From assembly GCA_050613775.1 (NCBI GenBank), contig JBODTK010000113.1, positions 496,001 to 531,203 of the forward strand: a DNA stretch of 35,203 nt, in the 5' to 3' direction. Positions 22,365 to 26,537 of this stretch are shown here, in pieces. The position numbers and the translations under genes were made by a program. Numbering within the stretch: the first letter of the stretch is position 1; every line of letters begins with the position of its first letter. The stretch comes from Neocallimastix sp. 'constans'. Taxonomy: Eukaryota. Below the pieces are notes generated by a model that was not told the DNA's origin, did no database searches, and saw nothing but the letters and a program-made list of their open reading frames with translations.

Positions 22365-26279
<3,915 letters not shown>

Positions 26280-26537
26280 ATATAAATAATATGTATATTA
26301 TTATAATATTATATATATATTTTATATTTTATATAATAATTTTTAATAATTTATAACAAAATATTATTAAAAATGAACATATATTAATTTTTAATTATAA
26401 AAATTTATTATATTTTTATATAATTATATTTTAATAGAGTAAGTATTATTGTTATTTATTTTTTAAACGAAATTTTTAATTAGTTTTATTAATATTAAAG
26501 AAAATTTATTTTATATTTTTTTTTTTTAAAAAAAAAG

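What the first reader, a model, noticed from the sequence alone, without database searches (positions are those of the whole stretch)
26272..26537. Putative one-nucleotide exon (A at 26438) that restores the frame between the poly-Asn exon and the PGK domain
Seen: the upstream exon ends in phase 1 (AAA G|gt, 26271) while the PGK acceptor (ag|A TCA ATT CAA ATG, 26538) needs phase 2, so direct splicing hits a stop (GAT CAA TTC AAA TGA). Between them is ttaatag|A|gtaagt: a canonical acceptor and a consensus donor separated by exactly one base. Using it gives introns of 166 and 99 nt, typical sizes here, and the codon G+A+A = Glu. Single-nucleotide exons are very rare and missed by gene predictors. 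Inference: inclusion, skipping or intron retention could switch between long (with PGK) and short isoforms.
Basis: partly seen in the sequence, partly recalled or inferred. Interest (0 to 1): 0.85.

Follow-up and report, generated by a model that had tools for sequence, protein, structure and literature searches.

The report
One-base exon in gut fungus gene
A gene of the anaerobic gut fungus Neocallimastix keeps a single A as an exon, seen in spliced copies, which joins a likely membrane-protein part to a likely inactive phosphoglycerate kinase part; public gene models miss it and split the gene, but one-base exons are already known in plants and other fungi.

Summary
The one-base exon is real. 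TAG|A|GTAAGT lies at 26435-26444 between a phase-1 donor and a phase-2 acceptor. One contig, from 1 of 4 runs laid, matches the upstream exon exactly and continues with one extra A plus the PGK exon. An intron-free protein, P0001, equals the model with the A over all 446 aa. All 14 family proteins that extend upstream of the PGK start read Glu-Ser-Ile-Gln there, from three upstream donors. The five NCBI genome-model sequences of the PGK part all start after the junction; one upstream model ends in the skip-frame stop.

The proposed skip switch is not supported: no transcript-derived skip form was seen, though the test is weak. The variation lies upstream. The poly-Asn 'exon' is an optional 994-codon extension, and an alternative acceptor (26065) truncates the protein at 172 aa. 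In relatives and the paralog the product is a 575-aa fusion of a likely Mpv17/PMP22-like domain and a PGK lacking R38, K215 and K219.

One-base exons are published (APC11, VPS55, Fusarium CYP621A, Coprinopsis), and this scan found several on other DNA. New member of a known kind.

The parts
26438..26438 (+). One-nucleotide exon (A), middle base of a Glu codon G+A+A
   Evidence: Sequence; contig junction with the extra A; P0001 reproduced only with it
26272..26437 (+). Intron upstream of the one-base exon when the proximal donor is used (166 nt, GT..TAG)
26439..26537 (+). Intron downstream of the one-base exon (99 nt, GTAAGT..AAG)
26066..26271 (+). 206-nt exon behind an alternative acceptor (TAG ending 26065). 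Joined to donor 23290 it shifts the frame and stops at 26119 (172-aa product). It is also the 3' end of the Asn-rich extension.
   Evidence: P0055 is reproduced exactly, and only with this acceptor; two contigs begin matching at 26064 (weak support)
23290..26271 (+). Optional in-frame Asn-rich extension (994 codons, 56% Asn, no stop). It is intronic in the 575-aa form and would be coding in a predicted 1,569-aa form.
   Evidence: its last 122 codons align with a relative's intron-free protein P0049
22365..23289 (+). Five exons (22365-22382, 22470-22569, 22705-22839, 22949-23047, 23179-23289) coding 154 aa, a likely Mpv17/PMP22-like domain; they end in phase 1 at the distal donor 23290
   Evidence: P0054 and P0055 match exactly; family lead only from the Atlas, no Pfam hit
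26538..28642 (+). Ten exons coding S-I-Q plus a 417-aa PGK-family domain with catalytic residues replaced
   Evidence: Identical to P0033, the Neocallimastix NCBI models; PF00162; residue audit

Best explanation
The A at 26438 is a one-base exon: it stands between a canonical acceptor and a consensus donor, appears in spliced copies, and keeps the PGK-like exons in frame, and it is likely included constitutively. Shown: spliced forms from the proximal donor (this gene copy) and from the distal donor (paralog, relatives) carry exactly one extra A, giving Glu. Inferred: the two flanking introns are removed one after the other by intron definition. If the 99-nt downstream intron goes first, the A becomes the first base of the PGK exon, behind TAG 26437, and any upstream phase-1 donor can splice to that one acceptor. 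This would explain why three different donors all keep the A. Isoform choice happens upstream. Donor 23290 to the A gives the 575-aa fusion (seen in the paralog and relatives, predicted for this copy). Donor 23290 to acceptor 26065 gives a 172-aa N-terminal product (seen). No splice at 23290 would give a 1,569-aa form with the Asn-rich linker (predicted). The fusion likely tethers a catalytically dead PGK fold to a membrane as a scaffold or ligand sensor (inferred, untested).
For: Motif, phases and low chance rate. Run X2: a contig identical over 26064-26271 whose 27 loose letters are one A plus an exact match to 26538-26563. P0001 (JGI/IMG, 2,155-nt contig) equals the A-including model over 446 aa; without the A that frame does not exist. 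Paralog transcript L001 shows the donor-23289 equivalent, one A, then the 26538 exon at DNA level. 14 of 14 proteins with residues upstream of the PGK Met read E-S-I-Q, out of 30 family proteins examined: after I-E (8), K (5) or G-S-I (1). The A cannot come from sliding either splice site: the flanking genomic bases are G on both sides. The NCBI model of the paralog, ORY87289, ends in the same D-Q-F-K as the skip join, so a second locus has the same phase clash. All 5 NCBI-model sequences of the PGK part start at the Met after the junction.
Against: Direct DNA-level support for this copy is one contig (depth 5.8) in 1 of 4 runs laid, out of 24 listed. It has 27 letters beyond the joint, under the tool's 31-letter bar, and 'RNA' for that run is a guess. 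No raw reads, so inclusion was not measured. No genomic DNA of any ortholog was obtained, so conservation of AG-A-GT itself is inferred from proteins. An exact search for the junction in metagenome contigs found 0. Protein lists cannot show skip forms well, because skipping breaks the frame, and 5 of the 20 members of the main cluster were not listed. The order of intron removal is untested. The 575-aa form was not seen for this copy.
Confidence: 0.9

Rival explanations
1. The one-base exon is a regulated switch: skipping it, or retaining a flanking intron, turns off the PGK part.
For: Skipping gives a stop after 4 codons, and retention of the upstream intron gives a stop after 2. An NCBI model of the paralog has the skip join (P0043). 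Plant VPS55 has forms with and without its 1-nt exon (PMC8831610, passages).
Against: No transcript-derived skip product among the 32 family proteins seen. The N-terminal-only search gave 1 cluster of 2 members, neither with the skip tail. The truncating isoform that was found uses acceptor 26065, and the junction on its downstream side still has the A. The test is weak: contigs drop rare forms, and skip mRNAs may be degraded.
Confidence: 0.12
2. There is no micro-exon: the window's assembly lost one A just after the acceptor at 26537, or the strains differ, and a single 266-nt intron is spliced.
For: The acceptor lies next to long T and A runs, where assembly errors are common (general knowledge). 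No DNA run or second assembly of this locus could be compared.
Against: The paralog's model in an NCBI assembly ends in the same skip-frame residues, while its transcript has the A. Five of five NCBI-model sequences from three genera fail to fuse. A YAG-N-GTAAGT with exactly the needed base sits in the intron (0.03% by chance). 266 nt is twice the longest other intron.
Confidence: 0.04
3. The donor at 26439 mainly serves a 5'UTR intron of a stand-alone 417-aa PGK-like transcript, and the fused forms are minor.
For: There is an in-frame Met 10 nt after the acceptor. Four JGI/IMG-only proteins of 417 aa on contigs of 1,254-1,575 nt begin at that Met.
Against: Nine fused proteins with the N-terminal domain, eight of them full at 575-589 aa, occur across six clusters, with 73-85% identity kept in that domain. 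The 417-aa entries may be 5'-truncated contigs. As the only role of the donor this is excluded; as an extra isoform it is open.
Confidence: 0.05
4. The structure is a stwintron, or the A is added by RNA editing.
For: It has two abutting GT-AG units with one base between them, like [D1,2]/[A2,3] stwintrons (PMC5587772, abstract and introduction).
Against: A [D1,2] form needs G+T across the internal intron and an [A2,3] form needs A+G. Here the joins are G+A and A+A, so no splice signal is rebuilt, and the base ends up in the mRNA. A templated A is available at the right place, so editing is not needed.
Confidence: 0.01

Closest known systems
Constitutive 1-nt exon of Arabidopsis APC11 (Guo and Liu 2015, PMC4674806; main text read, parts 1-2 of 3)
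   Same: A single A between AG and GT, found as an unexplained extra base in cDNA, needed for the frame and missed by annotation; sequential intron-definition splicing is proposed.
   Different: APC11 was proven by resequencing and base substitution; this case has only assembled transcript evidence. Here several alternative upstream donors converge on the exon, and it lies at a domain-fusion joint.
1-nt exon of Fusarium CYP621A P450 genes (Nelson and Syed 2026, PMC12940212; main text read, parts 1-2 of 3)
   Same: Fungal; a phase-1 donor cannot join a phase-2 acceptor; the middle base of one codon is supplied; gene models are wrong; RNA data support it.
   Different: There the base is G, inside a conserved enzyme motif, with the AG-G-GT layout shown in 20 or more genomes. 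Here it is A, between two domains, in an early-branching anaerobic fungus, and genomic conservation could not be read directly.
1-nt exons in Coprinopsis cinerea (13 exons in 13 genes; PMC12230235, passages) and plant VPS55 (PMC8831610, passages)
   Same: They show that 1-nt exons recur in intron-rich genomes and break gene models when omitted.
   Different: VPS55 has alternative forms without the exon; none was seen here.
Phosphoglycerate kinase, PF00162 (human PGK1)
   Same: Full-length Pfam match (E 6e-104 for P0001) and near-collinear alignment to solved PGKs.
   Different: R38, K215, K219 and G373, which bind the transferred phosphate (PMC5594045, one passage; R38M lowers kcat about 10^7-fold, PMC6040698, passages), are L, D, N and K in 10 of 10 family members checked. 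It is fused to an N-terminal domain.

Membership tests
Spliceosomal single-nucleotide exon (APC11 type) | One base between a canonical acceptor and a canonical donor, with two complete flanking introns | tested here: met
   TAG|A|GTAAGT; GT-AG introns of 166 and 99 nt
Spliceosomal single-nucleotide exon (APC11 type) | The base is present in spliced transcripts | tested here: met
   One contig in 1 of 4 runs; P0001 exact; paralog transcript L001
Spliceosomal single-nucleotide exon (APC11 type) | The base cannot be supplied by shifting a single intron's ends | tested here: met
   G follows the donor-side exon and G precedes the acceptor-side exon; the mRNA has A
Spliceosomal single-nucleotide exon (APC11 type) | Genomic sequence verified independently; a substituted base appears in the mRNA | not testable with these tools
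   No genome or DNA run of the locus compared; only indirect support from the paralog's model P0043
Spliceosomal single-nucleotide exon (APC11 type) | AG-N-GT layout conserved in orthologous genomic loci | tested here: inconclusive
   No genomic ortholog found; the junction Glu is conserved in 14 of 14 proteins and genome models are split in three genera
Spliceosomal single-nucleotide exon (APC11 type) | Constitutive inclusion | tested here: inconclusive
   No transcript-derived skip form seen, but only contigs and called proteins were available
Stwintron [D1,2] or [A2,3] | [quoted passage not shown] | tested here: not met
   The joins give G+A and A+A, not GT or AG; the A is exonic
Phosphoglycerate kinase (PF00162) | Full-length profile match above the curated cut-off | tested here: met
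   348-356 bits against a cut-off of 27
Phosphoglycerate kinase (active enzyme) | Transition-state residues R38, K215, K219, G373 (human numbering) | tested here: not met
   L, D, N, K in 10 of 10; R65 is D/E and R170 is L/N/S (role of R170 recalled)
Mpv17/PMP22 (PF04117) | Pfam profile match | tested here: not met
   No PF04117 hit for P0043, P0054, P0055, P0040 or the 575-aa proteins
Mpv17/PMP22 (PF04117) | Remote similarity or four-helix membrane fold | tested here: inconclusive
   Atlas top hits were Mpv17/PMP22 clusters at 0.89 and 0.90 (197 and 202 of 256 features; 28 of 30 hits) for two related queries. Hydropathy peaks were only 1.3-1.5, one or two per protein. The model was unusable (pLDDT 38).

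The most novel reading that the evidence does not exclude
A one-base exon conserved across anaerobic gut fungi acts as an obligatory relay acceptor. Through it, alternative upstream splicing attaches a catalytically dead PGK to an Mpv17/PMP22-like organelle membrane domain, with or without a 994-residue Asn-rich linker, or cuts it off. The result would be an unannotated, splice-regulated pseudo-enzyme sensor or gate on an organelle channel of these hydrogenosome-bearing fungi.
Probability: 0.2. Interest if true: 0.65.

Novelty: new member of a known kind. Interest (0 to 1): 0.42.

Why it matters
It extends transcript-supported one-base exons to Neocallimastigomycota. No paper in the searched library links micro-exons to these fungi. 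It also shows a concrete cost: every NCBI model seen calls a stand-alone 'PGK', while spliced copies encode a 575-aa fusion whose PGK part lacks its catalytic residues, so metabolic models that count this gene as a glycolytic enzyme are likely wrong. Because at least three donors converge on the exon, the locus is a simple test of the order of intron removal around a 1-nt exon, which the APC11 paper leaves open. The splicing feature itself is rare but has precedent.

Tried and rejected
No whole genome was held. Reads could be laid only on the upstream side (25870-26291), so no joint table spans the exon, and skip and retention levels stay open; 3 of 4 runs had no contig crossing 26271, which is no evidence of absence. 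The exact junction pattern gave 0 hits in metagenome contigs. The pattern scan of prokaryote genomes gave 2 chance hits. The protein search with the end of the Asn-rich stretch gave none at E<=0.001 among 7,993 candidates, although a relative (P0049) turned up by another route. AlphaFold of the 575-aa alignment (6 sequences) gave pLDDT 38, so no fold search was run. No solved-structure relative of the N-terminal domain was found. The HMMER search of representatives never ran, so remote homologs of the N-terminal domain and fusions outside gut fungi are untested. The branch-point scan found no clear motif, in the two introns or in most control introns. The brute-force exon search returned nothing because of my own start-position error; exons were then set from alignments and verified against P0054/P0055. 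Rejected: stwintron, splice-site sliding, RNA editing. Paper searches with no relevant result. Supplements of the cited papers were not opened; their microexon lists could bear on how common 1-nt exons are.

Full report
Setting. The window is 8-34% G+C by 500-base bin. The ten exons at 26538-28642 translate to a protein identical to P0033, which NCBI lists for three Neocallimastix genomes. So this is an anaerobic gut fungus gene. No whole genome was held.

Observation. Every coordinate in the finding holds. The upstream exon ends in phase 1 at 26271 and the acceptor at 26537 needs phase 2. TAG|A|GTAAGT lies between them, and direct joining ends in D-Q-F-K-stop. It is the only AG-N-GT in the 266-nt interval. 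In 20,000 dinucleotide shuffles YAG-N-GTAAGT arose in 0.03%, YAG-A-GTR in 1.2% and any AG-N-GT in 7.8%; the 13 other introns of the gene (74-135 nt) contain none. The motif alone is suggestive, not proof: the + strand has one other YAG-N-GTAAGT, at what looks like an ordinary exon end (20064).

Transcript evidence for this copy. Of 24 runs listed, four were laid on 25870-26291. One contig of run X2 (263 nt, depth 5.8) is identical over 26064-26271. Its 27 loose letters are one A followed by an exact match to 26538-26563. The other three runs had no contig crossing 26271. The limits are plain: one contig, 27 letters where the tool asks for 31, and a run whose RNA label is a guess. Independently, P0001 (JGI/IMG, 2,155-nt contig) equals the exon model with the A over all 446 aa, and that frame disappears without the A. 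Since it runs through nine PGK introns, its contig is inferred to be a transcript.

Relatives. One search gave 30 hits, 7 of them close (82-100% identity). Their clusters supplied 30 family proteins (15 of 20 members of the largest cluster were listed). Of the 30, 14 extend upstream of the PGK Met, 9 start at it, 4 are internal fragments and 3 are N-terminal only. All 14 read E-S-I-Q at the junction, and all come from JGI/IMG or Logan, none from NCBI genome models. Eight have I-E before it, matching the donor at 23290. Five have K, matching the donor at 26272 or an equivalent. One joins from the exon that ends at 22839 here. All three donors are phase 1, so each needs the same extra base. The paralog transcript L001 shows it at DNA level: distal exon end, one A, PGK exon. 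This list favours included forms, because skipping breaks the frame.

Annotation and the assembly-error rival. All five NCBI-model sequences of the PGK part (Neocallimastix, Anaeromyces, Piromyces) begin at the Met after the junction. In the Neocallimastix genomes a separate upstream model has the adjacent accession number. One of these, ORY87289 (P0043), ends in the same eight residues as my skip model. So a second locus, in an NCBI assembly, has the same phase clash while its transcript has the A. That makes a lost A in the window unlikely. It is indirect: no genomic DNA of an ortholog was found.

What the gene makes. Five upstream exons code 154 aa. Distal donor plus A gives 575 aa, 82-88% identical without gaps to the five 575-aa relatives compared; this form was not seen for this copy itself. 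Distal donor to an acceptor at 26065 reproduces P0055 (172 aa) exactly, through a frameshift. Two contigs starting at 26064 fit this, but their left ends were not shown. Not splicing at 23290 leaves 994 open codons (56% Asn) and a predicted 1,569-aa protein. The other frames have 109 and 520 stops, and a crude estimate for 433 non-Asn codons without a stop is 2e-21 (repeats make this too low). A relative's intron-free protein, P0049, includes sequence upstream of the alternative acceptor in frame, with conserved motifs.

The joined domains. The C-terminal part matches PF00162 over its length. Aligned to solved PGKs, the positions of human R38, K215, K219 and G373 hold L, D, N and K in 10 of 10 members. 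These residues bind the transferred phosphate (PMC5594045, one passage), and R38M alone cuts kcat from 89.8 to 7e-6 per second (PMC6040698, passages). It is likely a pseudo-enzyme; this is not assayed. The N-terminal part has no Pfam or PDB match. Atlas features point to Mpv17/PMP22 at 0.89-0.90, a level that shuffled proteins reach 4-10 times in 100, and hydropathy is weak. The fold model failed. This assignment is a lead.

Mechanism. Shown: the base is exonic and needed for the frame. Inferred: two spliceosomes cannot sit on both sides of one base, so the introns go in turn by intron definition, as proposed for APC11 (PMC4674806, Discussion). Removing the 99-nt intron, which has the consensus GTAAGT donor, first would leave one ordinary acceptor at 26437 for any upstream donor; this fits the three donors seen. 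The opposite order is not excluded. A stwintron is excluded because no GT or AG is rebuilt across either intron (PMC5587772, abstract and introduction).

Comparison and novelty. One-base exons are published for Arabidopsis APC11 (main text read), plant VPS55 (passages), Fusarium CYP621A (main text read) and 13 Coprinopsis genes (passages). Earlier notes of this scan report four more in other fungi (unchecked, not evidence), and none for look-alike DNA. Searches pairing Neocallimastix or anaerobic fungi with micro-exon terms found no paper, and the top 20 were unrelated; subscription journals are mostly outside the library. The case is therefore a new member of a known kind. It adds a new lineage, several donors converging on the exon, and a hidden fusion gene.

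Verdict. Observation confirmed; interpretation partly supported. Real one-base exon about 0.9; regulated skipping about 0.12; assembly artefact about 0.04. Interest 0.42.

Noticed in passing
window 26063-26271: An alternative acceptor (TAG ending 26065) joined to donor 23290 shifts the frame and stops at 26119. It gives the 172-aa P0055, and the same model mRNA carries the 446-aa P0001 frame downstream. Both proteins are listed on 2,155-nt contigs; that it is one contig is inferred. It behaves like a poison exon or a frame-shifting exitron.
   Followed up: yes
window 26538-28642: The PGK-family domain lacks R38, R65, R170, K215, K219 and G373 in 10 of 10 relatives checked, yet is 85-90% conserved across genera: a likely pseudo-enzyme annotated everywhere as PGK.
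   Followed up: partly
window 22365-23289: The 154-aa N-terminal domain has no Pfam hit; Atlas features point to Mpv17/PMP22 (0.89-0.90), a lead only.
   Followed up: partly
window 25896-26160: Three short [S/C]-F-I-[D/E]-E motifs at the end of the Asn-rich extension are conserved in a relative (P0049). R-K-V-S-F resembles an RVxF phosphatase-docking motif and an R-K-x-S kinase site (both recalled, untested).
   Followed up: partly
protein P0045: A relative has ankyrin repeats (PF12796) joined in frame through K-E-S-I-Q to the PGK-like domain; it may be a chimeric contig or another upstream partner.
   Followed up: no
L001; P0039, P0040: Neocallimastix has a second copy of the gene (80-94% DNA identity in coding exons). 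In its NCBI models, read-through of the distal donor stops after 12 residues, so it has no long open Asn-rich frame from that donor; P0042 suggests that it still has a proximal donor.
   Followed up: partly
window 20064-20073: A second YAG-N-GTAAGT (CAG A GTAAGT), at the end of an open coding exon of the upstream gene; probably an ordinary donor.
   Followed up: partly
window 3920-3926: TAG-A-GTAG after an AT-rich stretch, just past the end of ORF 2938-3897; not examined.
   Followed up: no
window 17785-18254: A tandemly repeated AT-rich unit that keeps three + frames open for 119-153 codons.
   Followed up: no
window 5167-8151, 9492-11604, 13410-14012 (-), 30490-35105: Neighbouring ORF pieces look like a sodium/bile-acid symporter, a WD40 protein, Sec62 and a sugar-binding seven-helix receptor. 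These labels are recalled resemblances; no search was run.
   Followed up: no
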